From Myxococcota bacterium (lineage in GTDB: Bacteria; Myxococcota; B64-G9), in the NCBI GenBank assembly GCA_041560255.1, contig JBFFBT010000003.1:1-52916 (forward strand): DNA of 52,916 bases, read 5' to 3'. Every line of letters begins with the position of its first letter. Position 1 is the stretch's first letter. The position numbers were made by a program, and so were the translations under genes. Of this stretch, positions 21,217 through 48,253 are shown piece by piece. The notes under the pieces were generated by a model. The model did not search any database. It was not told the origin of the DNA and saw only the letters and a list, made by a program, of their open reading frames with translations.

Positions 21217-21259
21217 GCCGGGCCCAGAAAAATCAGGTTGGTTCACGATATCGATCGCA

Positions 21260-22672: not shown

Positions 22673-22781
22673 CAGGGAAGTTCGTACAATATGCCCACAA
22701 TCCCAGCTATCGACTCTATCGACCGTTCATTCTACCCTGACAGGTGGTAAAGTCAAAAGAACGTTTGATCCCGGGAGCGAA

Positions 22782-24446: not shown

Positions 24447-24473
24447 GTGACCTTCTTTCGCGCCTCACCACAT

Positions 24474-25325
24474 TCAAAAACCCGGAACCGGCGGCCCAAT
24501 AAGATCCAAAAACCATCCGCCCAAAAAGAGATATTCCACCGCGGACGCCGCCAAAAAAGGTCCGAAAGGAATGGCGGCCGTCATGAAAGAAGACGGCCCA
24601 GGCCGCAACGCTTCCTCGGTGGGGTCTTCCTCCGGAGGCGCTTTCAACCCTACACCCAAAAGCCAAAGCAACACCGCCGCCAACACACCTTGCACCGAAG
24701 CAAACAAAAACACAAACGGCAGGCTCTGCCACCCCAACCAAGCACCCAGCATGGCCAAGAGTTTCACATCCCCCATGCCCATGCCTTCCCGGCCTCGGAT
24801 CAACATGTATGCGATAGAGACCGCCAACAAACCTCCTCCACCCAGCAACAACCCGATCAAAGAATCCACCCACATGCCCGGCCAGAGAAAAGAACAACCA
24901 AATCCGATCACGATTCCGGGCAGGCTGATTTGATTCGGGATGATGCGATGATCGATATCGATGAAGGCAATGGCGATAAGCGCCGCACTAAAGCAAAAAT
25001 GCACCCCAAACTCCAAAACCAGCCCAACGCTTCCAAACCTCCACCACAACCCGGCGGCCAAACCGGCCGTCAGAAGCTCGATCAAAGGATACCGAATCGA
25101 AATCGAGCCGCCACAATGCCGGCAACGCCCCTTGAGCCACAAGAAACTCATCATCGGGATGTTGTCGAACCAAGCGATGCGTCGCTGGCAACCCGGACAG
25201 GCGGATCTCGGCCGCACGATCGATCGACCCTGGGGTAGACGGATGATGACGACATTGAGAAAACTGCCCACCACCGCGCCGGTCAGAAACCAAAATATAT
25301 ACAATACCATCGACATTGTATCCAT
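24474..25325 (-). CDS. pilD: Prepilin peptidase/N-methyltransferase
   Basis: GSFLNVVI.RLP, CPGC/CRHC, FIDIDH, GMGMGDVKL, IPFGPFLA. Confidence 0.97.
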   Translation of the reverse strand: MDTMSMVLYIFWFLTGAVVGSFLNVVIIRLPQGRSIVRPRSACPGCQRRIAWFDNIPMMSFLWLKGRCRHCGGSISIRYPLIELLTAGLAAGLWWRFGSVGLVLEFGVHFCFSAALIAIAFIDIDHRIIPNQISLPGIVIGFGCSFLWPGMWVDSLIGLLLGGGGLLAVSIAYMLIRGREGMGMGDVKLLAMLGAWLGWQSLPFVFLFASVQGVLAAVLLWLLGVGLKAPPEEDPTEEALRPGPSSFMTAAIPFGPFLAASAVEYLFLGGWFLDLIGPPVPGF

Positions 25326-33769: not shown

Positions 33770-34797
33770 TGGAAGCTACATTTCTTCAGGTCAGCTGGTT
33801 TGTGCTTTTCGGCGTGTTGTTGATCGGCTACACCATCCTGGACGGGTTCGATCTGGGAGCCGGCGTGCTTTCGTTGTTTGAAAAATCTCCCGAATCAAAG
33901 CGTAAGATAGCCCTGGCCATCGGACCGGTTTGGGACGGCAACGAGGTATGGTTGCTCACGGCGGGCGGGGCCTTATTCGCAGCATTTCCGGCCGTCTATG
34001 CGAGTGTTTTCAGCGGCTTCTATCTGGCGTTCATGCTGCTTTTAGTATTTTTAATCTTGCGGGCGGTAGCGTTGGAATTCGCCGCTTCGATCGAGAAGCC
34101 CGCATGGCGGCGTTTCTGGGATGTTGGGTTCGGGTTGGGGAGCCTCGGCCCCTCACTCTTGTTCGGGGTTGCATTGGCGAATATCATCCGCGGCTTACCC
34201 TTGGATGCCCAGGGCAATTATCTAGGATCTTTTTTCGACCTCCTCAACCCATACGCCCTTTTGGCCGGTCTGCAATCCCTGGCCATGTTCATCTGTCACG
34301 CAGCGATTTACCTGATGATAAAAACCGAAGGAGATCTTGAAAATCGCATGCACAAAACAGCTTCCAAAGCTTGGATCTTCTGGCTGGTTCTGTTTTTGGC
34401 CTGCACGGGAGCGAGTATCTTTATTGCCGACGAAAGAATGCATGCCGCATTCGAGCATGCATTGATCTGGCCGGTTCTGGCCATGCTGGCCGTATCGCTG
34501 GCGATGATCCCCTTGTCTCTGCGTCGAGGCAAGGCCAAATCAGCGTTCTTTTGGTCCTCGGCAGCCATGACCTCCCAGATCGCCGTGATCGGATTGAGCC
34601 TGTATCCCGTTCTGGTGCCCGCCAGCAATGATCCGAACTTGAGCTTGACCATCGTCAACGCGTCTTCTTCGCAAAACACTCTATCTGTGATGCTGATTAT
34701 CGCCGCCATCGGAATGCCCCTGGTCATCGGCTACACCATATACATGTATCGAACCTTCAAGGGGAAAATACACCCGGAATCCCTCCATCATCCCTAA
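33766..34797 (+). CDS. cydB: Cytochrome bd oxidase subunit II
   Basis: LDGFDLGAG, IGPVWDGNEVWL, FAAFP, LTIVNASSS; ATGA overlap with cydA. Confidence 0.97.
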   Translation: MMEATFLQVSWFVLFGVLLIGYTILDGFDLGAGVLSLFEKSPESKRKIALAIGPVWDGNEVWLLTAGGALFAAFPAVYASVFSGFYLAFMLLLVFLILRAVALEFAASIEKPAWRRFWDVGFGLGSLGPSLLFGVALANIIRGLPLDAQGNYLGSFFDLLNPYALLAGLQSLAMFICHAAIYLMIKTEGDLENRMHKTASKAWIFWLVLFLACTGASIFIADERMHAAFEHALIWPVLAMLAVSLAMIPLSLRRGKAKSAFFWSSAAMTSQIAVIGLSLYPVLVPASNDPNLSLTIVNASSSQNTLSVMLIIAAIGMPLVIGYTIYMYRTFKGKIHPESLHHP

Positions 34798-35142: not shown

Positions 35143-35385
35143 GCGTTGCGATAACACCCCTAATATATGCTGTCAAGAAAAAAACTTCAAAAATTAAAAA
35201 AAAAGCTCAACGATTCAAAAATACTGTAACCACCCAATCTAAATACAAAACCTCAAGAAGCGGCCTTCTATTATATGGTGACTCCACTCGCCGAAACGTT
35301 TCATTTTTTTGTCGAGAACGCTTCGAAAAAACTGACCCGGCAACCGAGTATTTTATGATAAGGCATGCGCAATCGAGTCCAGCTC

Positions 35386-36867
35386 TCATGGCGGCAAATC
35401 GGCAAGCGGCAGGTTGACCATAAAAGTGGTTCCTCCGGCCAGTTGGGAGGTAACCTCCACGGATCCGTTGTGGGCCTCAATGACCTTTTTAACCAAAGAA
35501 AGCCCCAGGCCCGAGCCGGTGATACCCCGAGTTTGTTTTCCTTTGACCCTAAAGAATCGATCGAAAATATGCGGGAGATCCTCGGGACTGATACCGATAC
35601 CGGTATCTTCGACTTTGATTCTGGCCAATGATTGAGCGACCGAGGCAGAAAGCCTGACCGTACCGCCGGGTTGGGTATATTTTATGGCATTGTCCAAAAT
35701 ATTGGTCAAGACTACCCGGAGCTGATCGATATCCACCGCGATCCACCAAGCCTGGCTATGGGGATCGTACTGAAGATCGATGTTTTTGCCTTCCGCCTTG
35801 GGTCGCACCAGATCGACTACCTGCCCGAGCAACCCATCACCCGATACCGGTTCCAGGTTGAGTACGATTGCCCCGGTATCCAGGCGGGACAGGCTGAGCA
35901 GATTTTCTATCATTTGCAGCTGATCATGCAGTCGTTCACTGATGCGTTCGAGCAAATGGCGTCTGCGGTCCAGATCCTGCTCCCCGCACTTTTGAATTGT
36001 GTAGACCATCTGAATGATCGACGCCAACGGCGCGCGTAAATCATGAGCCACCATCGCGACAAACTCGTTTTTATGCTGGTCGATTTGTTTGTGCGGGGTC
36101 AAATCCTCAAACACGGTCACCGATCCAAGAGCTTGACCATCGCCGACCCGCACCGGAGCGCAATGCGCCCTGAGATAATAACGGGATATGCTACCGGGCG
36201 GAAAGTCTCGCGTCACTTTTCTACCGGCCTGCATCACTTCCCGAACCATGTCCGAAGCGTTATGATCCAAGATAGAATCGGAAAGCGGTTTCCCGATGAC
36301 CGGATCGGTCTGCAGATCCAACATGCGGATGGCGGCCGGGTTATGCAGGACCACAATACCCTGTTTGTTGGTCACCAACACAGCCCCTTCCATGCACCCG
36401 AAGATGGTTCGAAGACGACTTTGCTCTTTGGCGATGGTTTCCAAGTTGAGATTTTTCTCTTCCCGCAGCTTGGCGGCTTCAGAGTGCAGCACGCGGGTTT
36501 TCACCGCCCGATCGACCACCAAGCGGATATAATCGGGGGTAAACGGCTTGCCGACAAAGTCGAATGCCCCTTGTTTCATGGCTTCCACGGCCTTGGCGAC
36601 CGTGGCAAATCCGGTCACCACGATCACGGTCACCGTGGGTCGGTTCTCCTTGATCCAGCTTAATACGGAAAAGCCGTCCATACCGGGCATCATCAAATCC
36701 AACAGAACAATATCAACCGGGATCTCCTGCATTCGGCCGATCCCGACCTTCCCGTTCTCCGCCTGGTGAATCTCATATTGTTCACCGCCCAGCGCCCGTT
36801 TGCATCCCTCCCGAATGACTTTTTCGTCATCGATCAACAAAATCCGGATCGGTTCATTGGAAACCAT
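35386..36867 (-). CDS. Soluble hybrid histidine kinase (REC-PAS-HisKA-HATPase)
   Basis: LLIDDE / LLDLMMPG / GKP receiver, PAS (NPAAIRML), VAHDLRAPL, NILDNAIKY, DTGIG, GSGLGL; no TM. Confidence 0.93.
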   Translation of the reverse strand: MVSNEPIRILLIDDEKVIREGCKRALGGEQYEIHQAENGKVGIGRMQEIPVDIVLLDLMMPGMDGFSVLSWIKENRPTVTVIVVTGFATVAKAVEAMKQGAFDFVGKPFTPDYIRLVVDRAVKTRVLHSEAAKLREEKNLNLETIAKEQSRLRTIFGCMEGAVLVTNKQGIVVLHNPAAIRMLDLQTDPVIGKPLSDSILDHNASDMVREVMQAGRKVTRDFPPGSISRYYLRAHCAPVRVGDGQALGSVTVFEDLTPHKQIDQHKNEFVAMVAHDLRAPLASIIQMVYTIQKCGEQDLDRRRHLLERISERLHDQLQMIENLLSLSRLDTGAIVLNLEPVSGDGLLGQVVDLVRPKAEGKNIDLQYDPHSQAWWIAVDIDQLRVVLTNILDNAIKYTQPGGTVRLSASVAQSLARIKVEDTGIGISPEDLPHIFDRFFRVKGKQTRGITGSGLGLSLVKKVIEAHNGSVEVTSQLAGGTTFMVNLPLADLPP

Positions 36868-36930
36868 GGCTCTTGTCCTCTTCGCGTGAGATCCCCGCCG
36901 CTCATCCGGCGGTATCCAGACATGCGCGAC

Positions 36931-37311
36931 CTAGATCCAGTCCTGAATGCGTTCGAGCAACACATCCGGCTGAACCGGTTTGGCGATATAGTCTTCAGCC
37001 TCGCTTTCCAGCATGTCACGATGGGTGTAGGTGCTCGAGGTAACCCTGGAAGCCACTGCGGTCAGAAGAATGATGGGAATGGCGGCGGTTTGGGGGTTTT
37101 CCTTCAAAGCTTTACAGGCTTCGTGGCCGTTGATCTCCGGCATCATGACATCCAAAATAATCAGATCCGGTTTAATCTCCCCGACCCTCTCGAGGCATTC
37201 CTTTCCGTCGTACGCCACCTCCACCTGGTAACCCGCTCCCTCGACCACGGTTTTGACAGAATCAACGAAATCCGGATCGTCATCCACCAAAAAGACTTTC
37301 TTTTTGCTCAT
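36931..37311 (-). CDS. Single-domain response regulator
   Basis: LVDDD, ILDVMMPE, LLTA, YIAKP; no output domain. Confidence 0.93.
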   Translation of the reverse strand: MSKKKVFLVDDDPDFVDSVKTVVEGAGYQVEVAYDGKECLERVGEIKPDLIILDVMMPEINGHEACKALKENPQTAAIPIILLTAVASRVTSSTYTHRDMLESEAEDYIAKPVQPDVLLERIQDWI

Positions 37312-37377
37312 GCCTGGTCCTCCTTATGGGGTTGCTTAAGTCGTTATACACCACAATTTGCTTGGGCACATGCGCTT

Positions 37378-38301
37378 TTATAGCTCCGGCCGGGGCACCA
37401 ATCCGGCGCTCTTGACAATCTCGGGCACTTTTTGCTCCCATTCGATGGCCATCAGATGCACTCCGCGAACTCCCTCGATCCCGCGCAGGCGCTCGATCGT
37501 CTCGATGCACATTTGGATGCCCACTTGAGGTTGATCCTTTTTGTCCGCGGCGGAAATTCGTTTGATCACCTCGTCGGGAATGTCCATACCGGCTACGTTT
37601 TTTTTCATGAATTTGGCCATGCCGGCTGATTTGAGCGGCGTCACACCCGCAAGCACTGCAACCTTTTCGTGCAAACCCCGATTGCGCACATCCTGCATGT
37701 ATTGCTCAAATTTCTTCAGATTGAATATACACTGGGTCTGTACGAAATCCGCTCCGGCCTGGACCTTGAGCGCCAATCTGGGCACCCGGATCTCGTAGGG
37801 ATCTGCAAACGGGTTTACCGCACATCCGATCAACACCGCAGGCTTGCCGGCCAGCTCCTTTCCGGAAGGAAACCTGCCCTCGTCACGCATCCTGCGAACC
37901 AAATCGACGAGTTGAATCGAATCGATATCGTACACGTTCTTGGCTTCGGGATCGTCGCCGAAAATCTGGTGATCACCACTTAGACACAATAGATTTCGAA
38001 TTCCCAGAGCGCTGGCCCCCAGCAAGTCGGACTGCAACGCAATCCGGTTTCGATCCCGCACCACCATCTGCATCAGAGGTTCTACTCCGGCTTGCTTGAG
38101 CAACAAGCAACCTGCCAGCGAGCTCATGCGCACCACCGACGTCTGGTTGTCGGTTACATTGCAGGCATCCACGTTGCCCTTGACATGCACCACCTTCTTT
38201 TGAAACTCCTCCGGATCGGCCCCGCGAGGAGGACCGCATTCGGCCGTGACCGCAAAATGACCCGCCGTTAAAATCTTTTCCAAGTTGCTGCCGGCTTTCA
38301 T
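37378..38301 (-). CDS. metF: Methylenetetrahydrofolate reductase MetF
   Basis: AECGPP, NVTDN, RDRNRIALQSD, LSGDH, KVQAGADFVQTQ, GVHLM. Confidence 0.95.
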   Translation of the reverse strand: MKAGSNLEKILTAGHFAVTAECGPPRGADPEEFQKKVVHVKGNVDACNVTDNQTSVVRMSSLAGCLLLKQAGVEPLMQMVVRDRNRIALQSDLLGASALGIRNLLCLSGDHQIFGDDPEAKNVYDIDSIQLVDLVRRMRDEGRFPSGKELAGKPAVLIGCAVNPFADPYEIRVPRLALKVQAGADFVQTQCIFNLKKFEQYMQDVRNRGLHEKVAVLAGVTPLKSAGMAKFMKKNVAGMDIPDEVIKRISAADKKDQPQVGIQMCIETIERLRGIEGVRGVHLMAIEWEQKVPEIVKSAGLVPRPEL

Positions 38302-38966
38302 TGGGTAAGATCCTCCCTTACGATGCGCCGCGGTCCGCCGTCACGACTTTGACGCCAGCGTTTCATCGGCCTGAGCTTTTCGTACATATCCAATCGATCG
38401 AGCGCATTGAGCCGATCGATAATGAGCTGCCAACCGCACGGCACGGATCGGTCGATCTCGCAATGGCCGCTGACCGAACCTCCGCAAGGTCCATGAAAGA
38501 TGCTTTTCGAGCAACGGGTGACGGGGCAGATGCCGCCGGTCAAATGCAGTACACACTCTCCGCAAGCTTGACAACGCTCACTCCACTCGCCCTGTCGTTC
38601 GGTGACTCCGATGAAATTGGTGTTGATACCGGGCAACATGGGTGTTTTCTTGAAAGTCTCGGCCAAAAACTGCACCCCGGCTCCACAGGCGATGGACAAT
38701 ACCGCCTGGTAGCCGTCGATATAGGGTCGCATCTGCTCCAGATACTCGGGATCGCATTGACGCTCCAAGGTTTCCGGTCGTATCTCGATGGGTTTCGACG
38801 CGGCTTCGCGGGCCAGTTTGAGCGTGGAGGCCAGGATTTCCACCTCTTTTTGACCTCCGGCCCGGCAAACAGTGACACACCCGTTGCATCCGGCCAAAAT
38901 GATCCGATCAAACGGATCCAACATCTCGATGATCTGCTCCAAGGGTTTTGCATTTCCGATGATCAT
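38298..38966 (-). CDS. metV: MTHFR-associated Zn/Fe-S subunit MetV
   Basis: GCNGCVTVC, ERQC, ACGAG, CQACGEC...GGICPVTRCSK...GPCGG...CE...CGW. ATGA overlaps with mvhD (38963-38966) and metF (38298-38301). Confidence 0.92.
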   Translation of the reverse strand: MIIGNAKPLEQIIEMLDPFDRIILAGCNGCVTVCRAGGQKEVEILASTLKLAREAASKPIEIRPETLERQCDPEYLEQMRPYIDGYQAVLSIACGAGVQFLAETFKKTPMLPGINTNFIGVTERQGEWSERCQACGECVLHLTGGICPVTRCSKSIFHGPCGGSVSGHCEIDRSVPCGWQLIIDRLNALDRLDMYEKLRPMKRWRQSRDGGPRRIVREDLTQ

Positions 38967-39439
38967 GCTTGTTCTCCCACTCTTTGCTCCGGATCGATCC
39001 GATCGATTTTTTCTTCCCAACCCTGCCGTACCTGATTGATGGGACTTGGTCCCATCTTCTCGATGTGCTCGACCATCTGGGTGGCATGAACGACAAACTT
39101 GGCTCCCTCACCCGCGCTGAGATTGACCATCCGCACCCTTCCGATCCCGATCCCGGCCGCACCCAGCAGCTTGTCGACCCGTTCGACCCGTTTGCGGGCT
39201 CTTAGATTTCCTACCTGAAAATGACAATCTCCCTCCAAACATCCCACCACCATCACTCCGTCCGCTCCGTTCTCGAACGCCCGCAGCACCATGATTTCTT
39301 CTACCCGGCCGGTGCAAGGCACCAGCACGATGCTGACACAATCGGGATACGAACGTCTTTCCGAACCTGCCAGGTCCGCGGCCGTATACGCTCAGTAACG
39401 ACAGCAAAACAAGACCACATTTGGTTGCCATCCGCCCAT
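38963..39439 (-). CDS. mvhD: MvhD/FlpD [2Fe-2S] subunit, selenoprotein (Sec at codon 16)
   Basis: AGGAGG RBS, ATG 39439, MGGWQPNVVLFCCRY-UGA-AYTAADLAG...VPCTGRV...GADGVMVVGCLEGDCH. The UGA (39392-39394) sits at the second Cys of the C-x-x-C-x-Y motif. Confidence 0.92.
39362..39391 (-). promoter_or_regulatory. Bacterial SECIS-like hairpin in mvhD
   Basis: CGGACCT-GGC-AGGTTCG stem-loop; its G-initiated loop begins 21 nt 3' of the UGA. Confidence 0.7.
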
Positions 39440-39451
39440 GTTTCCTCCTGA

Positions 39452-42400
39452 TTAACCACTACGGCAGCCAGGTTGCTCACCCAAAGCATCCACTTTGGCC
39501 AACAACTGCCTATCATTGTAATTGCCCAGGCTGATGGCCTTGCCGGGGCATTCCGCGGCGCAAATCCCACAACCCTGGCACATAGCGGGATTGATCTCGG
39601 CGATATGATCCGGGTTGACAACCGGAACATGAAAGGGACACGCCCGCACACAAGTCAAGCATACCGCGCAGCGTTCCGGATGGGACACGACCGATACAAC
39701 CCCAGACATCTTGAGCTTCTGCTTGGATAAAACCACACTCGCACGCGCAACCGCGGCCGAGGCTTGCGAGATGGTCTCCGATAGATTCTTGGGTCCATGC
39801 GCCAAACCCGCCACAAACACTCCTTCGGACGCAAAATCAACCGGCCGGAGCTTGGCATGCGCCTCGATGAAAAAACCACTTTCTGCCCGCGGCACCCGAA
39901 ACATCGCGCCGAGCTCTGCGTTATCCGTAGCCGTAATGCCCACCGACAACACCAGCAAGTCCGGTTCCATCACGACCCGCCTGCCGATGGACGGATCGGC
40001 CAGCGCGATCCGGGGGCGGGCACCCTGGGTGTCGACCTCGATGGGATTGTTTTCGGGATCATAGCGGATAAAATTGATCCCCAAACGCCTGGCTTGGAGA
40101 TATTCGAGCTCGCTCAAACCATACGATCTGACGTCCCGATAGACGACATCCACCCGGGTATCCGGATAACGAAGCTTGAATGCCAGCGCGTTTTTGATCG
40201 CCTGGTTGCAACATACCCGGGAACAATACGGCCTTTCCGGGTTACGCGATCCCACACACTGAATCATGACCACATGGGAATGCATAAATCCCAATCCGGT
40301 TTGATCATACAACATACGCTCGAACTCGGTCTGGGTACAGACCTTTTCATGCACACCAAGTCCATACAGGTCGGGTCGGTTTTCCAGTCCGCCGGTGGCA
40401 AGCAAGGTAGCGCCGTGCCGAATTTTCCGAGTAGCACCGGTCGGGGTGACGATTTCGGACTCGAAGTTACCTACAAAACCGGAGTGGGAGACAACCTCCG
40501 AGCCTAAAAACATCCTTACCGAGGATTGGGCTCGAAGCTCGGCCTCGAGTTTGTTGAGATGATCGACCACCGACAATCCGTCGATGGTCCTGCGCAGCAG
40601 CCGCGCCCGGCCACCCAATGTATTTTCACGTTCTACCAGATAGACCCGGAAACCTTGCTCGGCCGCCAGACGCGCCGCGCTCATACCCGCCAGACCTCCT
40701 CCAATAATGAGCAAGCTGCTATCGACCTCGAACTCACGTTCTTCCAGCGGTTCGGCCGAGCTCACATTGGCCACCGCCATACGCAACAAGCGTTTGGCTT
40801 TATCGGTAGCCCGCCGGTTGTCCGACCTGTGCACCCATGAGCATTGATCGCGTATATTGGCCATATCGAACAAATATTTATTCAACCCGGCCTGTGCCAA
40901 GGTTTGTTGAAACAAGGGTTCATGGGTTCTCGGAGAGCAAGAAGCCACTACGATACGATTGAGCTTGTGCTCCTCGATAATCCCCCGCATACTCTCCTGA
41001 GTGTCCTGGGAACAGGTGTAGAGCAAATGGTTTGCATAGACCACCCCGGGTAAAGACCGGGCGTATTCGGCCACTTCGGCCACATCCACGATGGCCGAAA
41101 TATTGATGCCGCAATGGCATACAAACACCCCGACCCGCAACTCCTCGTCCTGCAAACCGGCCCGCACGGGTGGATAGGATTCTTCGGTCACCAGACTGTG
41201 GCGGGAGGCCGACAATACACCGGCGGCCGCGCCCGCAGCCCCGCTGGCTTCGGACACCGTCTCCGGAATGTCTTTGGGAGCGTTGAACACACCGCAGACA
41301 AAAACTCCCGGCCGATTCGTGGCCAGCGGGGAAAACGACCGGGTCCGGGCAAAGCCGAATCGATCCAACTCAATCCCTAATTTTTCTGCGGTATCCCGGG
41401 TCGTCGGACTGCACTGCAGTCCCACCGACAAAACCACCATCTCAAACTCTTCCTCTCTCCTTTGACCGGATTCATCCACGTAACGCAGCAACAGGTTGTC
41501 GGTGACCGGATCCTCCATGATGCGGCTCACCATGGCGCGCAAGTAGCGCACCTTATGAACCGTCTTGGCTCGTTCGACGTAATCATCAAACCCCTTTCCA
41601 AACGCCCGAATATCGATATAGAAGATGGTGGGCTCGATCCGGCCGTCATGTTCTTTTGCAATGACGGCCTCCTTGGTGGCGTACATGCAACACACCGAAG
41701 AGCAATACTCGCGCCCCAAGGACGCATCTCTCGAACCAACGCACTGTATGAACGCAACTTTCCGCGGCGCCCGTTTATCGCTGGGACGCACCACATGTCC
41801 GTCGGTCGGACCCGAGGCAGAAAGCAATCGCTCGAACTCCAGACTGGACAGCACATTTTTATGCTGCCCGTAGCCCAATTCGGGCCTTTTTTCTGCTGGA
41901 AACACTTCGAATCCAGGCGCCAAGATCACCGATCCAACCTCCACCTCCAAAACCTGTTCAGTCTGAAGATGATCGATGGCATCGGCCTTACAAGCGGGCA
42001 CACACCGGTAACATTCGCTACATACTCCGCAGGCTAGACATCTGGCGGCCTCCTCCATCGCTTGATCCCGGGTAAAAACCGCTTCGACCTCCTCGAAGTT
42101 GGTTGTGCGGGTCATCGGATCCAACATGGCGGCCCGTTGCCTTGGCTTGGGCTCGGGGTGGTCGATTTTTACATCAGCCTGCTTGGGTTGCTGCGATCTT
42201 TCGCTGTGTAAATCCCGCCCATGCAAATAACGCTCGATGGAGATCGCCGCTTCTTTTCCGGCCGCGATGGCTTCGATGGCGGTGGCCGGCCCGCTGGCCA
42301 CATCTCCGCCCGCAAACACGCCGGGCAACAAGGTTGCAAAGGTGACAGGATCCGATACCCGACCCGAGTCTGCGTTCGGGAGCCAATCCAAATCGGCCCA

Positions 42401-43891
42401 TTGGCCCACGGCGGCTATCAGGGTATCCACTTCGATAACCTCTTCCAAACCCTCGACCGGCACCGGTCTTCGGCGGCCGGACTCGTCCGGCTCCCCGAGC
42501 TGCATCGTCATGATCTCCAATTTGCGGATTTTTCCATTTTCGCCGATACACCGAAGCGGCGCCCGCAGCAAGCTTAACTGTACGCCTTCTTCTTCGGCGG
42601 CTTCGATCTCGTGTCGGTCTGCGGGCATTTCCTCCCGCGAGCGCCGGTATAGAAGCATAACCCGGCTTGCTCCCAAGCGAAGCGCTGTGCGGGCCGCATC
42701 AATCGCAGTGTTGCCTCCGCCTACCACGACGACTTTGTCACCCACCTCCACGTTTTCGCCCCGAGCGACTGCCGAGAGAAAATCGATCCCCTGGACAACC
42801 CCGTCACTGTCCTCGCCATCGATACGCATACGAGAAGCCCGCCAGGCCCCGCTGGCCATATAGATGGCCGAAAAACCCTCTTTTTTCAGCGAATCAATCG
42901 TAAAATCAACCCCCAACCTCTTGCCCATCTCGACCCTGACCCCGAGATCCAAAATCGCTTTGACTTCGATATCCAATATATTTTTTGGCAGCCGGTAAGC
43001 GGGTATCCCATAGCGCAACATACCCCCAAGCTCGGGAAGAGCTTCGAACACGGTAACCCCGAAACCCTTTCGGCGAAGATAATAGGCCGCCGTCAAGCCA
43101 CTCGGACCCGCGCCCACTACGGCCACCTGCTCGGATCGATCGACCGGCGGTCCGGGCAGATGGGGCAATCCATGTTGCAGCTCGTAATCAGTCACATATC
43201 GTTTGAGCTGGCGTATGGCTAAGGGCTCGTCGACTTGAGATCGCGAGCAGGCTGTCTCGCAAGGAGCCGGACAGACCCGTCCGCAAACCGACGGGAACGG
43301 ATTCTCCTCCCGGATGAGGGCCAAGGCTTCTTCAAAACGACCCTCGGCAATGAGAGCCACGTAGCCCTGCACACTGATATGACTCGGGCAAGCCTGCTTG
43401 CAAGGAGCGCGCCCGGATTTATCGATGGCGAATCCACCCGGAATGGCTTGGGGATAGCGGCGATAAATCGCTTTCCGCATCCCCATACCCAGGTTGTGCT
43501 CCGACGGCACCTCGATGGGACAAGCATTCACGCATTCACCGCATCCGGTGCAACGATCCAATCTGATATAACGCGGGCTTTGGATCAAACGGGCCCTGAA
43601 GCTTCCCAGAGTACCTCCGAGATCTTCCAAGCGGGTATCGGTCAAAATCTGGATGTTTTTGTGCCGGCCCACTTCCACCAGCTTCGGCGATACGATACAC
43701 ATGGAGCAATCGTTGGTGGGAAAAGTTTTATCCAACTGAGCCATTTTTCCACCGATGGCGGACAAGGTTTCGACCAAGTAAACTTTGAAACCTGAATTGG
43801 CCAGATCCAGAGCCGCCTGCATTCCGGCGATCCCGCCGCCTGCCACCAATACAGCTCCGGTGGGAGCTTTTGCGCATTCAGCGTTTTCCAT
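39452..43891 (-). CDS. hdrA: Large HdrA (HdrL-type): two HdrA modules plus an inserted GltD-like NAD(P)H/FAD module and ferredoxin domains
   Basis: GGKMAQLDKTFPTNDCSMC; APCKQACP...CGRVCPAPCE, GAGPSGL, GGGNTA, YRRS; FIQCVGSR...YCSSVCC; VFVCHCG, SCSPRTHE; second IQCVGSR...YCSRVCC; EAHAKLRPV; C-terminal 2x[4Fe-4S]. Confidence 0.93.
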   Translation of the reverse strand: MENAECAKAPTGAVLVAGGGIAGMQAALDLANSGFKVYLVETLSAIGGKMAQLDKTFPTNDCSMCIVSPKLVEVGRHKNIQILTDTRLEDLGGTLGSFRARLIQSPRYIRLDRCTGCGECVNACPIEVPSEHNLGMGMRKAIYRRYPQAIPGGFAIDKSGRAPCKQACPSHISVQGYVALIAEGRFEEALALIREENPFPSVCGRVCPAPCETACSRSQVDEPLAIRQLKRYVTDYELQHGLPHLPGPPVDRSEQVAVVGAGPSGLTAAYYLRRKGFGVTVFEALPELGGMLRYGIPAYRLPKNILDIEVKAILDLGVRVEMGKRLGVDFTIDSLKKEGFSAIYMASGAWRASRMRIDGEDSDGVVQGIDFLSAVARGENVEVGDKVVVVGGGNTAIDAARTALRLGASRVMLLYRRSREEMPADRHEIEAAEEEGVQLSLLRAPLRCIGENGKIRKLEIMTMQLGEPDESGRRRPVPVEGLEEVIEVDTLIAAVGQWADLDWLPNADSGRVSDPVTFATLLPGVFAGGDVASGPATAIEAIAAGKEAAISIERYLHGRDLHSERSQQPKQADVKIDHPEPKPRQRAAMLDPMTRTTNFEEVEAVFTRDQAMEEAARCLACGVCSECYRCVPACKADAIDHLQTEQVLEVEVGSVILAPGFEVFPAEKRPELGYGQHKNVLSSLEFERLLSASGPTDGHVVRPSDKRAPRKVAFIQCVGSRDASLGREYCSSVCCMYATKEAVIAKEHDGRIEPTIFYIDIRAFGKGFDDYVERAKTVHKVRYLRAMVSRIMEDPVTDNLLLRYVDESGQRREEEFEMVVLSVGLQCSPTTRDTAEKLGIELDRFGFARTRSFSPLATNRPGVFVCGVFNAPKDIPETVSEASGAAGAAAGVLSASRHSLVTEESYPPVRAGLQDEELRVGVFVCHCGINISAIVDVAEVAEYARSLPGVVYANHLLYTCSQDTQESMRGIIEEHKLNRIVVASCSPRTHEPLFQQTLAQAGLNKYLFDMANIRDQCSWVHRSDNRRATDKAKRLLRMAVANVSSAEPLEEREFEVDSSLLIIGGGLAGMSAARLAAEQGFRVYLVERENTLGGRARLLRRTIDGLSVVDHLNKLEAELRAQSSVRMFLGSEVVSHSGFVGNFESEIVTPTGATRKIRHGATLLATGGLENRPDLYGLGVHEKVCTQTEFERMLYDQTGLGFMHSHVVMIQCVGSRNPERPYCSRVCCNQAIKNALAFKLRYPDTRVDVVYRDVRSYGLSELEYLQARRLGINFIRYDPENNPIEVDTQGARPRIALADPSIGRRVVMEPDLLVLSVGITATDNAELGAMFRVPRAESGFFIEAHAKLRPVDFASEGVFVAGLAHGPKNLSETISQASAAVARASVVLSKQKLKMSGVVSVVSHPERCAVCLTCVRACPFHVPVVNPDHIAEINPAMCQGCGICAAECPGKAISLGNYNDRQLLAKVDALGEQPGCRSG

Positions 43892-43897
43892 GCTCTT

Positions 43898-44743
43898 TTA
43901 TCCTTCAGGGCGGGATTGTATCCCGCCAAGCAACGGTTTTGGGTCAATGAGGTGTTGCCGCCAGCGGCCCGGCTCGTGATCCTCGCTCATCGCATACGCC
44001 ACAAGCTCGGTGATGAAAAACACCGGCAGCCCGTCTGATCGATCGGACTGGCGCGCCTCCAGGTTGGCTTGACACATGGGACAATCCGTCACCAACGCCC
44101 GAGCGCCCGCCCTGCGGGCCGCCCCGACAATGTCTCCAACCAGCCTTGCGGCGATATCCGGGCGTGACATGCTCAGGCTGGACGAGCAACACTCGGTTTT
44201 ATGGCTCCAGCGAACCGCTCGAGCACCCAAAGCCGTCACAATCCTATCCAGACCATCTGGATTTTCACAATCCGGCGCACCGGTCACCGCCGGGGGCCTG
44301 AGGGAAAGACATCCGTAATAACAAGCCAGATCGAGTGCATGGAGAGGTCTTCGCACCAAGGCCTTCACCCGGGCCAACATATCCGGGCGAGCCACAAATC
44401 GCGTCAGATGAATGATGGCGAAATCACCTGCTTCAGCCTCTTCTGCTCGTATGTCGCTCGTATCCTTAGATTGCAGCTTGTCAGCAACCCGCAATCTTTG
44501 AAAACACGCCGAGCAGGGCACCAACAAATCCAACCCCAATTTCACGGCTTTGGAAAGATTTCTCGAAGACAATGCAATCGAAAGTCGGTGATCGGTCATA
44601 TGGCCCGAGGAAGCGCCGCAACAGTTCCAATCCGTAAGCTCCACCAGCTCAAAACCCAACAAGCCGGCGACTTCCCGTATGGATCGATCATATTCGGCCG
44701 ATGTACCGGCAAGCGAGCATCCGGGATAATATGACATTTTCAT
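43898..44743 (-). CDS. hdrB: Heterodisulfide reductase subunit B (CCG domains)
   Basis: YYPGC, DWNCCGA, PCSAC, YYGC, TECCS, DCPMCQANL. Confidence 0.93.
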   Translation of the reverse strand: MKMSYYPGCSLAGTSAEYDRSIREVAGLLGFELVELTDWNCCGASSGHMTDHRLSIALSSRNLSKAVKLGLDLLVPCSACFQRLRVADKLQSKDTSDIRAEEAEAGDFAIIHLTRFVARPDMLARVKALVRRPLHALDLACYYGCLSLRPPAVTGAPDCENPDGLDRIVTALGARAVRWSHKTECCSSSLSMSRPDIAARLVGDIVGAARRAGARALVTDCPMCQANLEARQSDRSDGLPVFFITELVAYAMSEDHEPGRWRQHLIDPKPLLGGIQSRPEG

Positions 44744-45303
44744 GTCGAAGGTCCTTTTTCGTTTTGATCGAAGATGCGCCGAAAGCGTCTCAGGCCTTTC
44801 ATCCGGCGGGGCAACAAGTGCAGTTTACCTCGCTTGAACATCCGCCAACCCAAACGCAAATCAGAGAAAAAATCCCGGGTTCGGGCTTTGTAGGCCGCCA
44901 ACATGCCGACCTCGTACGTCCGACCCCATCGGCGAACCGAACGCAAAAAAGAACGATGAAAAGCAACCACGCGTTTTTCGGCCGGTTGGACGCCGCCCTC
45001 CAAAGCCATCTGCCGCAACACGTCCATCAAGCCGGCAATGTCGATTCCGTTTGGGCAACGGGTCGTACAAGTCTCACAGGACGCGCACAACCATATGGTG
45101 CGGCAGGCCAACAAATCCTTTTCGACTCCGTACGCGCTCAGGCGCACCACCTGCATCGGCAGAAGATCGAAAAAATCCCCTACCGGACAACCGGCCGAGC
45201 AACGCCCACACTGGTAACAGGCCGTCGGCTCGATGTGCATCTCTTTCAGCCGGTGCTGCAAGAAAGTCTCGCCCGATCGGGCCTGCAGACTGATCGAATT
45301 CAT
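44740..45303 (-). CDS. hdrC: Heterodisulfide reductase subunit C
   Basis: CYQCGRCSAGCP and WLCASCETCTTRCP; ATGA overlaps on both sides. Confidence 0.93.
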   Translation of the reverse strand: MNSISLQARSGETFLQHRLKEMHIEPTACYQCGRCSAGCPVGDFFDLLPMQVVRLSAYGVEKDLLACRTIWLCASCETCTTRCPNGIDIAGLMDVLRQMALEGGVQPAEKRVVAFHRSFLRSVRRWGRTYEVGMLAAYKARTRDFFSDLRLGWRMFKRGKLHLLPRRMKGLRRFRRIFDQNEKGPST

Positions 45304-46907
45304 GTCTCAGACTCCGGCATTTCCCGGCTTAGCACCGGAAAGCGCAAGGTAAAAGTCGTACCCTGACCCGGCTCGGATTTGACCCTGACCGAGCCTCGGT
45401 GCTCGCGAACAATTGCGTAGGATACCGACAAGCCCAGTCCGGTTCCGCCCTGGTCGGTTTTGGTGGTAAAAAAAGGATCGAATATCTGTCCTTGGATCTC
45501 TTTGGGTATACCCGGTCCTGTATCTTCAAAAGAGATTTCGACAATCCCTCCGCTGGAACGATGCCGGGCCCGAATGGTCAAACCGCCTCGACCTTCCATG
45601 GCCTGGGCGGCATTGACGATGAGGTTCATGAAAACCTGGTTCAACCGGATGGGGTTGCCTCGGATTCTCGAGAGGTGTTTGTCGATCTCGAGATCGAATT
45701 GAATGTTTTGAAACGAAGGTTGTTTTTCCAACAAGCTCAACGTTTTTCGAATTTGATCCCCCACATCCACACCGGTTTGTTCGTAACTGGTCTGATGGGA
45801 AAACTCGAGCAAATCGGTAACAATCTGCTTGCAACGCTCGGCCTCCTGCACGATGACGTTGAGATCCCCCGCCACGGGATGTTCGGAGTCCAATTGCTCC
45901 AGGGCAAGATTGGCATACAACATGATCCCCGACATGGGGTTGTTGATTTCATGGGCCACGCCCGCGGCCAATCTACCCAAACCGGCCATTTTTTCGGATT
46001 GCAACAACATCTGGTGTATCTGCTGCAGGTCTTCTTCGGCTTTACGGATGGCCCTAAGATCGGTAAAAATACCGTAAGATGCGATCTCTTTTTGACCATC
46101 GTATATGATTCCGCCCGAAAGGCTCATGGGAATTTGCTTACCGTCTTTGGTAATGGCGATGAGCTCGTGACGCAGCAGCTTTCCCTGGCCTCCGTAGTTT
46201 TTGCTTCGCATCCGCTTGATGATCTTGAAGGCCTCGCCCTCCGGATACAATTTGGTCACATGCAAGGATCGAAACGCCTCTTCACGCGTATATCCTAAAA
46301 TGTTTTGGGCGCCGGTGTTGAACAAAATGATGTTGCCCTTCATATCGGAAGCGATGATGCCGTCGACCGAAGAATCGATGAGATTGTGAAAAAAAGTATC
46401 CCGGTATTTGAGCTCGATCTCGAGTTGGCGCCGGGCGGTGATATCCCGCATGAACCACACGGAGTAACCACCCACCTCCCCGCCGCTGGTCATTTCCAAT
46501 ATCCGTGCCATGCCGGTAATCGACTTCACCTCGAGCTCGTGGGCAGTGGGCTGAAACAAATCGGCGATCCGATCCAACACCCGGTGTCCGTACAGCTGCT
46601 CGCCGGCGTCTTTTCTTTCGGCCGGCATGGTGATACAACGATGCAATTGGGTACAATCACCGGCCGGAGACAGAGTTTCGCCAAACAACCCGACCAGGGT
46701 TTTGCCCAAAAGTCCCGGGGACTCGGTTTCCAAAATCTTGCACGCGCAAAGGTTGGCATATTCGATGACCTGATCGGAGTTGACCAACAACACCCCGAGT
46801 GGAGATTGCTCCATGATGCGAAGCACCAACTCGGCATTGCCGCAATCTATCCCGGGGGATCCCCCGGCATCCGGCGGAAAGCTCATGTCAGACATCGCTT
46901 TGACCAC
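45300..46907 (-). CDS. Soluble PAS-PAS histidine kinase
   Basis: Two PAS domains, EKMAGLGRLAAGVAHEINNP, QVFMNLIVNA, FDPFFTTK, GTGLGL; no TM; stop overlaps the hdrC start. Confidence 0.93.
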   Translation of the reverse strand: MVKAMSDMSFPPDAGGSPGIDCGNAELVLRIMEQSPLGVLLVNSDQVIEYANLCACKILETESPGLLGKTLVGLFGETLSPAGDCTQLHRCITMPAERKDAGEQLYGHRVLDRIADLFQPTAHELEVKSITGMARILEMTSGGEVGGYSVWFMRDITARRQLEIELKYRDTFFHNLIDSSVDGIIASDMKGNIILFNTGAQNILGYTREEAFRSLHVTKLYPEGEAFKIIKRMRSKNYGGQGKLLRHELIAITKDGKQIPMSLSGGIIYDGQKEIASYGIFTDLRAIRKAEEDLQQIHQMLLQSEKMAGLGRLAAGVAHEINNPMSGIMLYANLALEQLDSEHPVAGDLNVIVQEAERCKQIVTDLLEFSHQTSYEQTGVDVGDQIRKTLSLLEKQPSFQNIQFDLEIDKHLSRIRGNPIRLNQVFMNLIVNAAQAMEGRGGLTIRARHRSSGGIVEISFEDTGPGIPKEIQGQIFDPFFTTKTDQGGTGLGLSVSYAIVREHRGSVRVKSEPGQGTTFTLRFPVLSREMPESET

Positions 46908-46980
46908 CTCGTATCACCTCAATCCTACAACCACGGCAGTGTGCGCCGGCCCATCCTAGACCAACGACCCAAACCGGCGA

Positions 46981-47853
46981 CTAACGTCCCAACTTGGACA
47001 AAAACGCCGTCAGGTTGTCGCCCCAACCCAGGGCAACCAAACTGGCTCCTTTGCATCGATCCTCGAGATCGCGGACGAACTCGGCGGCTATCTCCAAGCC
47101 GGCCTGTTTTTTTAAAGGTGACTGCACCATTTTTTTTAAAAACTCGTTCGGGATGCTGGGTAGACCGGGTAGATCATTGAAATATCGAATCATAGCCACC
47201 GATTTAAGCAAGATGACCGAGGCAAACAGATGGATGCCGGCATCCAAGGCCTGTTTGGCGAACAAATCCACAATGTTGACATCATAGGTTGGGCCAAGGA
47301 CCAGAAAATGCACCAGATCCCGAGGATATCTTTTGATTTCCTCGGCGATTCGGCGATTTTTGTTCACGTCGTCCGATACTCCCAAGCTGACACCCACCGT
47401 ATACGCGGTCTTTCCCGCCAGTGCCTCCCCAGCCAAATCACGACCATCGTTGAGAGCCTGGACACACTGGAGCATGATATCCATGCTCAAATCCCTGCCG
47501 CTTTGTGCCATGGGTTGATCGCCCGAGGCAGCGTCCTCGCCCATCTCAAAAAGCACAGTTTTCACCCCAAGTTGCCATCCGGCCAGCAAATCGCCCTGAA
47601 AAGATATGCGGTTGCGATCGCGCCCGTTGAGAACCATGATGGGCTCGATGTTGCGCTCGACCAAGGCCCGGCAGGGAGCAAGCGGGGTCATTCGCATGAT
47701 CGCGCTACTGGAGTCGGTGACTGCGACCGCTTCCACCCTGCCCCGCACCCGATCGGCCGTATCGAAAAAATCATTCAAGTCAACCCCCTTGGGGGGATCA
47801 ATCTCGGCGATTAGGGTAAACTCGTCCTTCTGCAAAAAAGAAGACACGCCCAT
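46981..47853 (-). CDS. Divergent MetF (MTHFR-fold) paralog with degenerate active-site motifs
   Basis: AEIDPPKG, AVTD, RDRNRISFQGD and GRDLAG are retained. LSGDH becomes EMGED and KVQAGADFVQTQ becomes RYPRDLVHFLVLG. Confidence 0.85.
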   Translation of the reverse strand: MGVSSFLQKDEFTLIAEIDPPKGVDLNDFFDTADRVRGRVEAVAVTDSSSAIMRMTPLAPCRALVERNIEPIMVLNGRDRNRISFQGDLLAGWQLGVKTVLFEMGEDAASGDQPMAQSGRDLSMDIMLQCVQALNDGRDLAGEALAGKTAYTVGVSLGVSDDVNKNRRIAEEIKRYPRDLVHFLVLGPTYDVNIVDLFAKQALDAGIHLFASVILLKSVAMIRYFNDLPGLPSIPNEFLKKMVQSPLKKQAGLEIAAEFVRDLEDRCKGASLVALGWGDNLTAFLSKLGR

Positions 47854-47979: not shown

Positions 47980-48008
47980 ATCATAGCAACCCGTATAGGG
48001 ATCGTCAA
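47980..48008 (-). promoter_or_regulatory. sigma70 promoter of the metF-like/HK/hdr/met operon
   Basis: TTGACG-N17-TATGAT with extended -10 TG. Confidence 0.7.
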
Positions 48009-48135: not shown

Positions 48136-48253
48136 TAAGCTTATATGTATTTCCGGGGATGGACTATGCAGTCAAATATAGATAGAATGACTCCCTGCGC
48201 CGTACGATCGGCGGAATTTTGAATGCCTTTTTAGGAGAGTGAGGGAAAGTACA

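What the first reader, a model, noticed from the sequence alone, without database searches (positions are those of the whole stretch)
35386..47853. MTHFR-Hdr operon with a built-in soluble phosphorelay and a pseudo-MetF: candidate C1/folate-redox sensing system
Seen: one minus-strand run behind a clear sigma70 promoter, in the order metF-like, PAS-PAS kinase, hdrC, hdrB, hdrA, mvhD, metV, metF, lone receiver, REC-PAS hybrid kinase. The first kinase overlaps hdrC by ATGA, as do hdrC/hdrB, mvhD/metV and metV/metF. All three signalling proteins lack TM segments and none has a DNA-binding domain. Known: HdrCBA-MvhD-MetVF is the MTHFR complex described in Moorella thermoacetica and Sporomusa ovata. 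Inference: here the enzyme is bracketed by a dedicated cytoplasmic signalling circuit that reads folate/flavin/redox state, possibly through the degenerate MetF. Output would be post-translational or via a regulator encoded elsewhere. I know of no characterisation of such a module.
Basis: partly seen in the sequence, partly recalled or inferred. Interest (0 to 1): 0.85.

Follow-up and report, generated by a model that had tools for sequence, protein, structure and literature searches.

The report
Folate reductase operon with built-in phosphorelay
A ten-gene operon joins the methylene-tetrahydrofolate reductase of the Wood-Ljungdahl carbon pathway to its own soluble kinases and receiver proteins, is kept in the same order in dozens of species, and suggests that this central enzyme is switched directly by phosphorylation signalling.

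Summary
Window 35386-47853 (minus strand) carries, behind one sigma-70-like promoter: MTHFR paralogue (pMetF), PAS-PAS kinase (HK1), HdrC, HdrB, HdrA, MvhD, MetV, MetF, lone receiver (RR), receiver-PAS kinase (HK2), with four ATGA overlaps.

Corrections:
- "HdrA" is a 1479-aa HdrL-type fusion with a GltD/NfnB-like NAD(P)H module.
- MvhD is a selenoprotein (in-frame TGA).
- pMetF is not degenerate. It keeps 32 of 44 columns conserved across true MetFs.

Of 80 species-level loci seeded on pMetF:
- 54 show all ten genes in order.
- 25 run off the DNA held, in the expected order up to there.
- 1 has pMetF-HK1-RR-HK2 alone.

RR and pMetF orthologues occur in the same 8 of 61 related genomes.

New: a second, unrelated lineage embeds a kinase and receiver-only proteins in metVF operons. 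It includes MetF-receiver fusions (three protein clusters) and one MetV-kinase fusion. These receivers share a motif and loop insertion with RR.

Best reading, inferred: a phosphorelay whose receiver acts on the enzyme itself. pMetF's role (sensor or enzyme) is open. Seven literature searches found no description.

The parts
47980..48008 (-). sigma-70-like promoter, TTGACG-17-TATGAT with a TG extension
   Evidence: 10 of 12 matches, the best site in the region. The -35 CTTGACG recurs in 6 of 7 aligned upstream regions. This is a consensus match only; no transcript data.
46981..47853 (-). pMetF: 290-aa MTHFR-fold paralogue, first gene of the operon
   Evidence: Pfam MTHFR 39.5 bits. AF2 model pLDDT 81.4. 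Foldseek best match is Thermus MTHFR 8eac, TM 0.73. Only 27% identical to the operon's MetF. Keeps 32 of 44 MetF-conserved columns.
45300..46907 (-). HK1: soluble PAS-PAS-HisKA-HATPase histidine kinase (GTG start; an ATG lies at 46895)
   Evidence: Pfam. H-box AHEINNP is invariant in 17 orthologues and the second PAS is highly conserved. ATGA overlap with hdrC.
44740..45303 (-). HdrC-like 4Fe-4S dicluster subunit
   Evidence: Pfam Fer4_17/Fer4_8. NCBIfam HdrC models score below their cut-offs.
43898..44743 (-). HdrB-like subunit with two CCG domains
   Evidence: Pfam CCG 69.5 bits, 2 stretches.
39452..43891 (-). HdrL-type protein: HdrA with an inserted GltD/NfnB-like NAD(P)H-binding module, 1479 aa
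   Evidence: Pfam Fer4_20 and Pyr_redox_2 within residues 161-545, plus FAD and Fer4 domains. NCBIfam HdrA2 935 bits and PRK12771 580 bits. Residues about 127-626 are missing from the orthologue in the Desulfobulbales-labelled loci and in some Myxococcota-labelled ones.
38963..39439 (-). MvhD, a selenoprotein: in-frame TGA at 39392-39394 (codon 16)
   Evidence: The same codon is TGA in 58 of 59 MvhD copies in related loci and TGC in 1. SelB is present in the genome, 316.7 bits against a cut-off of 242.
38298..38966 (-). MetV (DUF5981), small subunit of MetVF-type MTHFR
   Evidence: Pfam DUF5981 118.5 bits. ATGA overlaps on both sides.
37378..38301 (-). MetF, catalytic MTHFR subunit of the MetVF type
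   Evidence: Pfam MTHFR 151.5 bits. PDB sequence match to Thermus MTHFR 1v93, E 2.5e-10.
36931..37311 (-). RR: stand-alone receiver, 126 aa, no output domain
   Evidence: Pfam Response_reg 94.7 bits. D10, D11, D54, T84 and K111 are conserved. The DDDPDF motif and a beta4-alpha4 insertion are shared with MetF-linked receivers of another lineage.
35386..36867 (-). HK2: receiver-PAS-HisKA-HATPase kinase, soluble
   Evidence: Pfam. H-box VAHDLRAPL. Receiver keeps the acidic residues and the Lys.
35335..35349 (-). terminator-like hairpin followed by a T run, after HK2
   Evidence: Pattern match only.

Best explanation
The locus is one operon. It encodes a HdrCB-HdrL-MvhD(Sec)-MetVF methylene-tetrahydrofolate reductase of a Wood-Ljungdahl organism, together with its own cytoplasmic phosphorelay.

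Proposed flow:
1. HK1 (PAS-PAS kinase) is the input kinase. The MTHFR paralogue pMetF may feed it, reporting the C1-folate pool much as a regulatory enzyme paralogue would.
2. HK1 phosphorylates the N-terminal receiver of HK2, or competes with HK2 for RR.
3. HK2 phosphorylates the lone receiver RR.
4. RR has no DNA-binding domain. It acts by protein contact on MetF or on the MetVF-Hdr complex, tuning activity or assembly rather than transcription.

Shown here: gene content and order, conservation of the order, co-occurrence of the parts, intact phospho-acceptor residues, and the existence of MetF-receiver and MetV-kinase fusions elsewhere.

Inferred: every phosphotransfer step, the target of RR, and the ligand and role of pMetF.
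For: 1. Order and strand of all ten genes are kept in 54 of 80 loci (one genome per species). A further 25 of 80 are cut by the end of the DNA held and show the expected order up to there. One (L111) has pMetF-HK1-RR-HK2 adjacent, with nothing between. Protein identities are only 50-75%, so the order has survived long divergence.
2. The L111 genome (G039) holds its hdr-mvhD-metVF genes on another contig. The four signalling genes, pMetF included, therefore behave as a unit.
3. In 61 related genomes, pMetF orthologues (E <= 1e-90) and RR orthologues (E <= 1e-30) occur in the same 8.
4. Downstream neighbours of HK2 differ in 5 of 5 genomes examined, and no adjacent DNA-binding regulator recurs among them.
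5. An independent architecture exists. Among 43 metagenome loci seeded on a MetF-receiver fusion, 7 have MetF flanked by a kinase and/or receiver-only genes.
   - L137 encodes MetV-HisKA-HATPase (523 aa) and MetF-Response_reg (455 aa) fusions, followed by a lone receiver.
   - L138 has MetV, then a cNMP-binding kinase, MetF and two receivers.
   - MetF-receiver fusions form 3 protein clusters from several sources, one of them named as Planctomycetota MAGs.
6. RR is 37-46% identical to those MetF-linked receivers. It shares their DDDPDF motif and a beta4-alpha4 insertion. Two control receivers from the window are 21-26% identical to RR and lack both features.
7. The receivers of RR and HK2 and the H-boxes of both kinases are intact.
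8. The genome has acetyl-CoA synthase (CdhC family) and formyl-THF synthetase genes, so the enzyme sits in a Wood-Ljungdahl pathway.
Against: - No experiment and no transcript data. No RNA run holds this DNA.
- The loci were found by searching with pMetF, so their conservation is conditional on pMetF. Many hdr-mvhD-metVF clusters have no signalling genes: L091 first copy, G039 C44, L143, L145, L147, L170.
- Kin are not independent. The cluster is seen in two broad lineages only. It is patchy: 5 of 151 sampled genomes of the Desulfopila order and 8 of 61 relatives of the window. One horizontal transfer could explain part of the spread.
- pMetF keeps most MetF core residues. It belongs with the short MetFs that sit next to hdrL in 10 of 10 Desulfobacterota loci examined. 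It could simply be a second catalytic subunit.
- The MetV-kinase fusion was seen on one contig only.
- HK1 resembles NtrB/AtoS-type kinases, which usually serve DNA-binding regulators. An unlinked regulator is therefore possible.
Confidence: 0.5

Rival explanations
1. The phosphorelay controls transcription. HK1, HK2 and RR form a branched relay or phosphate sink that ends on a DNA-binding response regulator encoded elsewhere (for example an NtrC-type one). That regulator switches the operon or other C1 genes. RR only buffers phosphate flux.
For: HK1's best NCBIfam matches are AtoS, ZraS and NtrB-type kinases, all below their cut-offs. The cluster has no output domain. Single-domain receivers acting as phosphate sinks are established biology (recalled).
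Against: No DNA-binding regulator is conserved beside the cluster in 5 of 5 genomes examined. The receiver fused to MetF and the kinase fused to MetV in another lineage point to action on the enzyme. RR is more conserved (61-83% identity) than either kinase, which fits a conserved protein target.
Confidence: 0.25
2. pMetF is not a sensor. It is a working second MTHFR subunit of the HdrL-linked short MetF type and docks on the Hdr module as an alternative to MetVF. The kinases sense redox or energy state through their own PAS domains.
For: pMetF has the MTHFR fold. It keeps 32 of 44 columns conserved in both MetF types, including E17, PP-G, RDRNR, Q86, G-D112 and L-K-S. Its nearer relatives (P0127 type, 29-34% identity) occur in 132 of 301 sampled Desulfobacterota genomes. 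They lie directly next to an hdrL-like gene in 10 of 10 loci examined.
Against: In L111 pMetF stays with HK1-RR-HK2, with no hdr or metV gene on the contig. HK1 always lies between pMetF and hdrC. pMetF replaces the Thr that is 99-100% conserved in both MetF types with Leu, and differs at 11 further conserved columns. The pMetF profile finds no solved MTHFR by sequence at E <= 0.01, whereas MetF does.
Confidence: 0.35
3. The shared order is inherited baggage. One block was transferred between two lineages, and the signalling genes have no functional tie to the enzyme.
For: Patchy distribution: 5 of 151 and 8 of 61 genomes. Only two broad lineages carry the cluster.
Against: Identities of 50-75% with unchanged order in 54 loci. 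Translational coupling by ATGA overlap between HK1 and hdrC. An independent second architecture links kinases and receivers to metVF.
Confidence: 0.05

Closest known systems
MetFV-HdrABC-MvhD methylene-THF reductase of Moorella thermoacetica (Mock et al. 2014, seen here only as cited in passages of PMC6295475)
   Same: MetF, MetV, HdrA, HdrB, HdrC and MvhD homologues are encoded together. The host has Wood-Ljungdahl genes.
   Different: Different gene order. HdrA carries a GltD-like NAD(P)H module. MvhD has selenocysteine. A second MTHFR paralogue, two kinases and a receiver lie inside the operon. No passage read describes such genes for Moorella.
HdrL (HdrA/glutamate-synthase fusion) with MvhD of Desulfobacterium autotrophicum HRM2 (PMC2702500, passages read)
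   Same: A large soluble HdrA-type protein with an NADH-binding, glutamate-synthase-like part, followed by mvhD. MvhD selenoproteins are reported there too.
   Different: In that paper the hdrL loci lie next to dsr or other genes. The passages read describe no kinases and no MetVF link.
HoxBC regulatory hydrogenase with kinase HoxJ and regulator HoxA in Ralstonia eutropha (review PMC6978683, passages read)
   Same: A paralogue of the regulated enzyme works as a cytoplasmic sensor together with a soluble histidine kinase. This is the best analogy for pMetF with HK1.
   Different: That system ends on a DNA-binding regulator, HoxA. Here no such regulator is linked. No contact between pMetF and HK1 is shown.
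Receiver domains that control an enzyme directly (CheB, PleD) and multi-kinase networks with lone receivers (RedCDEF of Myxococcus, DivJ/PleC-DivK): recalled, not checked here
   Same: Receiver-only or receiver-enzyme outputs with no DNA binding. Two kinases and a lone receiver in one circuit.
   Different: The controlled enzyme would be a central-metabolism flavoenzyme complex. MetF-receiver and MetV-kinase fusions turned up in none of the seven searches made.
Eukaryotic MTHFR, regulated by phosphorylation and S-adenosylmethionine (recalled; the PDB titles 8qa6 and 8uy2 name SAM-inhibited states)
   Same: The same enzymatic step is under post-translational control.
   Different: A different mechanism (Ser/Thr phosphorylation and a C-terminal SAM domain) and a different MTHFR class.

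Membership tests
MetVF-HdrABC-MvhD type MTHFR gene cluster | MetF with an MTHFR domain and MetV with DUF5981, encoded side by side | tested here: met
   Pfam 151.5 and 118.5 bits. ATGA overlap.
MetVF-HdrABC-MvhD type MTHFR gene cluster | HdrA, HdrB, HdrC and MvhD homologues in the same transcription unit | tested here: met
   Domains found; gaps of 12 nt or less, or overlaps. Co-transcription itself was not measured.
MetVF-HdrABC-MvhD type MTHFR gene cluster | The proteins form one complex that reduces methylene-THF | not testable with these tools
   Needs purification and assay.
HdrL (HdrA with a GltD-like module) | An HdrA core and an NAD(P)H-binding glutamate-synthase-small-subunit-like part in one polypeptide, followed by mvhD | tested here: met
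   Fer4_20 and Pyr_redox_2 within residues 161-545. PRK12771 580 bits (cut-off 516). HdrA2 model 935 bits, below its cut-off of 1100. mvhD starts 12 nt downstream.
Selenoprotein MvhD | In-frame TGA at a position that is Cys in non-selenoprotein homologues, in a genome with selenocysteine machinery | tested here: met
   TGA at codon 16. 58 of 59 related copies have TGA and 1 has TGC. SelB is above its cut-off.
Selenoprotein MvhD | SECIS hairpin just downstream of the TGA | tested here: inconclusive
   The fold of the 65 nt after the TGA is no better than shuffles (z 0.54). No covariation test was made.
Two-component phosphorelay | Kinases with HisKA H-box and HATPase domains; receivers with the acidic pocket, phospho-acceptor Asp, Thr and Lys | tested here: met
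Two-component phosphorelay | A response regulator with a DNA-binding or enzymatic output domain | tested here: not met
   RR is the receiver alone. No regulator is conserved next to the cluster in 5 of 5 genomes examined.
Canonical MTHFR (for pMetF) | MTHFR TIM-barrel fold and a Pfam score above the gathering cut-off | tested here: met
   39.5 bits against 24. Foldseek TM 0.73 to Thermus MTHFR.
Canonical MTHFR (for pMetF) | Residues conserved in working MetFs: the Glu of E-x-x-PP, the Asp of G-D, and the Thr/Gln of the T-Q segment. The E. coli equivalents E28, D120 and Q183 are recalled. | tested here: inconclusive
   Glu is kept (100%). An invariant Asp lies one position later, as in the HdrL-linked MetFs. 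The Thr is replaced by Leu in 99%. Overall 32 of 44 shared columns are kept.
Canonical MTHFR (for pMetF) | Bound flavin and reductase activity | not testable with these tools
   Needs the purified protein.
Enzyme-paralogue sensor with a soluble kinase (HoxBC-HoxJ type) | A paralogue of the regulated enzyme encoded next to a soluble PAS kinase and co-inherited with it | tested here: met
   pMetF is followed by HK1 in 78 of 80 loci; the other 2 end within about 430 nt after pMetF. This includes L111, where the enzyme genes are elsewhere.
Enzyme-paralogue sensor with a soluble kinase (HoxBC-HoxJ type) | Physical complex of the paralogue with the kinase | not tested
   No usable result was obtained; see Tried and rejected.
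FixL-type haem PAS (for the second PAS of HK1) | Proximal His on the F-alpha helix (position recalled) | tested here: not met
   The best PDB sequence matches are FixL PAS domains (E 2.7e-5). The column of the FixL His (the H-D pair) aligns with Ile in HK1.

The most novel reading that the evidence does not exclude
The MetVF-type methylene-THF reductase, the energetically puzzling step of the Wood-Ljungdahl pathway, is a direct post-translational target of two-component signalling. A dedicated family of receiver domains (DDDPDF motif, extended beta4-alpha4 loop), free or fused to MetF, docks on the enzyme when phosphorylated. The kinases are fed either by an MTHFR paralogue acting as a folate-pool sensor (this window) or by being fused to MetV itself (another lineage). 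The enzyme complex would then be both the sensor and the output of its own phosphorelay.
Probability: 0.35. Interest if true: 0.88.

Novelty: new variant of a known kind. Interest (0 to 1): 0.72.

Why it matters
Methylene-THF reduction is the most exergonic step of the Wood-Ljungdahl pathway. How MetVF-type enzymes are coupled to electron carriers, and how they are controlled, is still debated; the passages read in PMC6295475 state the open question for Moorella.

No bacterial MTHFR is known to me to be controlled by phosphorylation signalling, and seven full-text searches found no report.

The conserved operon gives a concrete, testable hypothesis. So do the MetF-receiver and MetV-kinase fusions. 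Several cultured, non-pathogenic carriers are available for the tests: Desulfopila, Desulforhopalus and Desulfobulbus sp. Tol-SR.

The operon would also be a rare case of a two-component output that acts on a central metabolic enzyme complex rather than on DNA.

Tried and rejected
- Complex prediction of full-length HK1 with pMetF, using alignments A3 and A2: no verdict (score 0.00, controls not run). It counts neither for nor against binding.
- Sequencing runs: no RNA holder listed. The only holder is a DNA run of a marine metagenome that may be the source.
- Rfam: nothing in the leader or the operon. The leader fold is not better than shuffles (z -0.08). No riboswitch is claimed.
- SECIS fold: not better than shuffles.
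- Fused long forms of pMetF by word search: none found, which the tool itself calls weak evidence.
- pMetF profile against PDB sequences: no hit at E <= 0.01. PAS of HK2 against PDB: no hit.
- My first conservation count compared pMetF with MetVF-type MetFs only: 32 of 53 columns kept, with the 'G-D' Asp and the 'T-Q' Gln apparently lost. I first read this as loss of catalytic residues. I dropped that reading. The widespread HdrL-linked MetFs share the G-x-D arrangement and also lack the Gln.
- Supplements of the papers were not opened. Table S3 and Fig. S3 of PMC2702500 may list hdrL/mvhD neighbours that bear on the comparison.


Full report
**What is there.** The minus strand of window 35386-47853 carries ten closely packed genes. 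Pfam assigns them as follows:
- pMetF 46981-47853: MTHFR, 39.5 bits
- HK1 45300-46907: PAS, PAS, HisKA, HATPase_c
- HdrC 44740-45303
- HdrB 43898-44743: two CCG stretches
- a 1479-aa HdrA-type protein 39452-43891
- MvhD (FlpD)
- MetV 38298-38966: DUF5981
- MetF 37378-38301: MTHFR, 151.5 bits
- a lone receiver RR 36931-37311
- HK2 35386-36867: receiver, PAS, HisKA, HATPase_c

The strongest promoter-like site of the region, TTGACG-17-TATGAT with a TG extension, lies at 48008..47980. A terminator-like hairpin follows HK2 at 35349..35335. A CTTGACG -35 box recurs in 6 of 7 aligned upstream regions of relatives. None of the three signalling proteins has a DNA-binding domain or a convincing hydrophobic helix. 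The neighbours on both sides are on the other strand: cydAB at 32420-34797 and an FG-GAP protein from 48239. The unit is therefore well bounded.

**Corrections to the observation.**
- The 'hdrA' gene is an HdrL-type fusion. A Fer4_20/Pyr_redox_2 module like the NADPH-dependent glutamate synthase small subunit is inserted at about residues 160-650. [quoted passage not shown]
- MvhD is complete only if the TGA at 39392-39394 is read. The same codon is TGA in 58 of 59 MvhD copies of related loci and TGC in one. The genome has SelB above its cut-off. MvhD is therefore a selenoprotein, as reported for D. autotrophicum. A SECIS hairpin was not demonstrated.

**The host.** The window is contig C3 of a 5.7-Mb, 502-contig assembly from a marine metagenome. 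Related records are labelled Myxococcales, Myxococcota or Deltaproteobacteria MAGs. The genome has acetyl-CoA synthase (CdhC family) and formyl-THF synthetase genes. It also has a second MetF (61% identical) with a MetV on contig C186, with no hdr hit on that contig.

- A scan of one genome per species with a pMetF alignment gave 113 relatives, of which 80 loci were kept.
- All ten genes lie in the same order and strand in 54 of 80 loci. In 25 of 80 the held DNA ends inside the cluster, with the expected order up to there. One, L111, has pMetF-HK1-RR-HK2 adjacent, without the enzyme genes.
- The L111 genome (G039) keeps an hdr-mvhD-metVF cluster on another contig.
- The carriers include cultured Desulfopila, Desulforhopalus singaporensis and Desulfobulbus sp. 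Tol-SR.
- Identities to the window proteins are 50-62% for pMetF, the kinases and HdrB/C, and 61-84% for MetV, MetF and RR. The order has therefore outlived much sequence change.
- In 61 genomes related to the window, pMetF orthologues and RR orthologues occur in the same 8, and in none of the other 53 with these queries.
- The cluster is patchy: 5 of 151 sampled genomes of the Desulfopila order have pMetF.
- Genes downstream of HK2 differ in all 5 genomes examined, and no adjacent DNA-binding regulator recurs among them.
- These counts are conditional on pMetF. Many hdr-mvhD-metVF clusters have no signalling genes.
- The GltD-like insert of HdrL is present only in the window's closest relatives. 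Most other carriers have the shorter HdrA.

**What is pMetF?**
- It has the MTHFR barrel: AF2 pLDDT 81.4, and Foldseek TM 0.73 to Thermus MTHFR.
- It is only 27% identical to the operon's MetF. Its family profile finds no solved MTHFR by sequence.
- The family is well conserved within itself (mean column identity 73%).
- Against MetVF-type MetFs alone it differs at 21 of 53 conserved columns. That comparison misleads. Its nearer relatives (29-34% identity) are short MetFs found in 132 of 301 sampled Desulfobacterota genomes. They lie directly beside an hdrL-like gene in 10 of 10 loci examined.
- Against columns conserved in both MetF types, pMetF keeps 32 of 44, including the Glu of E-x-x-PP-x-G, RDRNR, Q86, G-D112 and L-K-S. 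It differs at 12. The clearest change is Leu for a Thr that is 99-100% conserved.
- 'Pseudo-MetF' is therefore not justified. Ligand binding is likely kept, and catalysis is open.
- Its constant pairing with HK1, even where the enzyme genes are elsewhere, is the argument for a signalling role. The regulatory hydrogenase HoxBC with kinase HoxJ is the nearest precedent (PMC6978683, passages).

**The signalling proteins.**
- HK1 has an invariant AHEINNP H-box, a strongly conserved second PAS domain and a variable first one. That PAS is most like FixL haem PAS domains by sequence, but it has Ile where FixL has its proximal His (the identity of that His is recalled).
- HK2 has a complete receiver and a VAHDLRAPL H-box.
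- RR has the full set of receiver residues. It also has an unusual DDDPDF segment and a conserved insertion between beta4 and alpha4.

**A second, independent link between two-component proteins and MetVF.**
- A profile search of 1.84 billion representatives gave long hits. Pfam resolves two of them as MTHFR plus Response_reg (P0234, 455 aa) and HTH plus MTHFR (P0237).
- The P0234 MTHFR part is 52% identical to the window MetF. Its receiver is 40% identical to RR.
- Two more MetF-receiver clusters exist, at 84% and 44% identity. Their members come from several sources, and one is labelled Planctomycetota.
- On metagenome contig L137 the genes read: NuoG-like, Nuo51-like, MetV-HisKA-HATPase fusion (523 aa), MetF-receiver fusion (455 aa), lone receiver.
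- L138 has MetV, a cNMP-binding kinase, MetF and two receivers, unfused. L142 has a PilS-like membrane kinase between MetV and MetF.
- In all, 7 of the 43 loci from that biased search have such genes next to MetF. The rest have plain metVF or hdr-mvhD-metVF.
- The receivers of this second lineage are 37-46% identical to RR. They share its DDDPDF motif and loop insertion. Two control receivers of the window (21-26% identical) lack both.
- MetV and MetF are partner subunits. A kinase on one and a receiver on the other would therefore place phosphotransfer inside the enzyme complex.

**Mechanism proposed, all inferred.** HK1 senses through PAS2 and possibly through pMetF. It signals to the receiver of HK2. 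HK2 sets the phosphorylation of RR. RR binds MetF or the complex and changes activity or assembly. I put about 0.85 on a dedicated functional link between these signalling genes and the MTHFR, about 0.45 on a post-translational output, and about 0.5 on pMetF as an input component. The rivals are an unlinked DNA-binding regulator, pMetF as a plain second catalytic subunit, and inherited synteny without function.

**Novelty.** Seven full-text searches found no description of kinases or receivers tied to MetF, MetV or Hdr. The five papers opened mention histidine kinases or response regulators only in unrelated contexts. All parts are known kinds. The combination, its conservation and the fusions are new as far as these searches reach.

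Noticed in passing
window 39452-43891, compared with L045-L119: The roughly 500-aa GltD/NfnB-like NAD(P)H module of HdrL (residues about 127-626) is present only in the window's closest relatives (L041, L042, L044, L051). It is missing from the orthologous HdrA of the other carriers. The electron partner of the complex may therefore differ between lineages.
   Followed up: partly
L091 849-7396 and 19571-20365: One Desulforhopalus MAG has a second hdr-mvhD-metVF copy directly upstream of pMetF, 40-60% identical, with Cys (TGC) instead of selenocysteine in MvhD. It also has two tandem copies of RR.
   Followed up: partly
P0237 (384 aa; 3 cluster members): An XRE-type HTH domain fused to a complete MTHFR domain that keeps the G-D and T-Q motifs. 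It looks like a one-component regulator that uses an MTHFR fold as its sensor domain.
   Followed up: no
P0157, P0190, P0231, P0212: Other MTHFR fusions: with FolD (607 aa), with the CdhD subunit of acetyl-CoA synthase (845 and 1038 aa, one with TPR repeats), and MetV-MetF in one chain (548 aa).
   Followed up: no
L180-L189: In Desulfobacterota, a short MetF (P0127 type, in 132 of 301 sampled genomes) lies directly next to an hdrL-like gene in 10 of 10 loci examined. In 3 of the 10 a kinase-like hit is nearby, but only in L180 on the same strand.
   Followed up: partly
window 14080-25325: Type IV pilus block: PilY1-like protein (14080-17859), three prepilin-type proteins, a HAMP kinase (22782-24446) with a sigma-54 response regulator (21260-22672), and a prepilin peptidase (24474-25325). 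This regulator pair is probably for the pilus, not the output of the MTHFR relay.
   Followed up: no
window 32420-34797: Cytochrome bd oxidase genes cydAB, convergent with the operon, in a genome that has Wood-Ljungdahl genes and selenoproteins.
   Followed up: no
window 94-165: A tRNA gene on the minus strand (Rfam, 67.6 bits).
   Followed up: no
window 48164-49573 (-): A 469-aa ORF with no Pfam match that overlaps the FG-GAP gene on the other strand. Probably not a gene.
   Followed up: no
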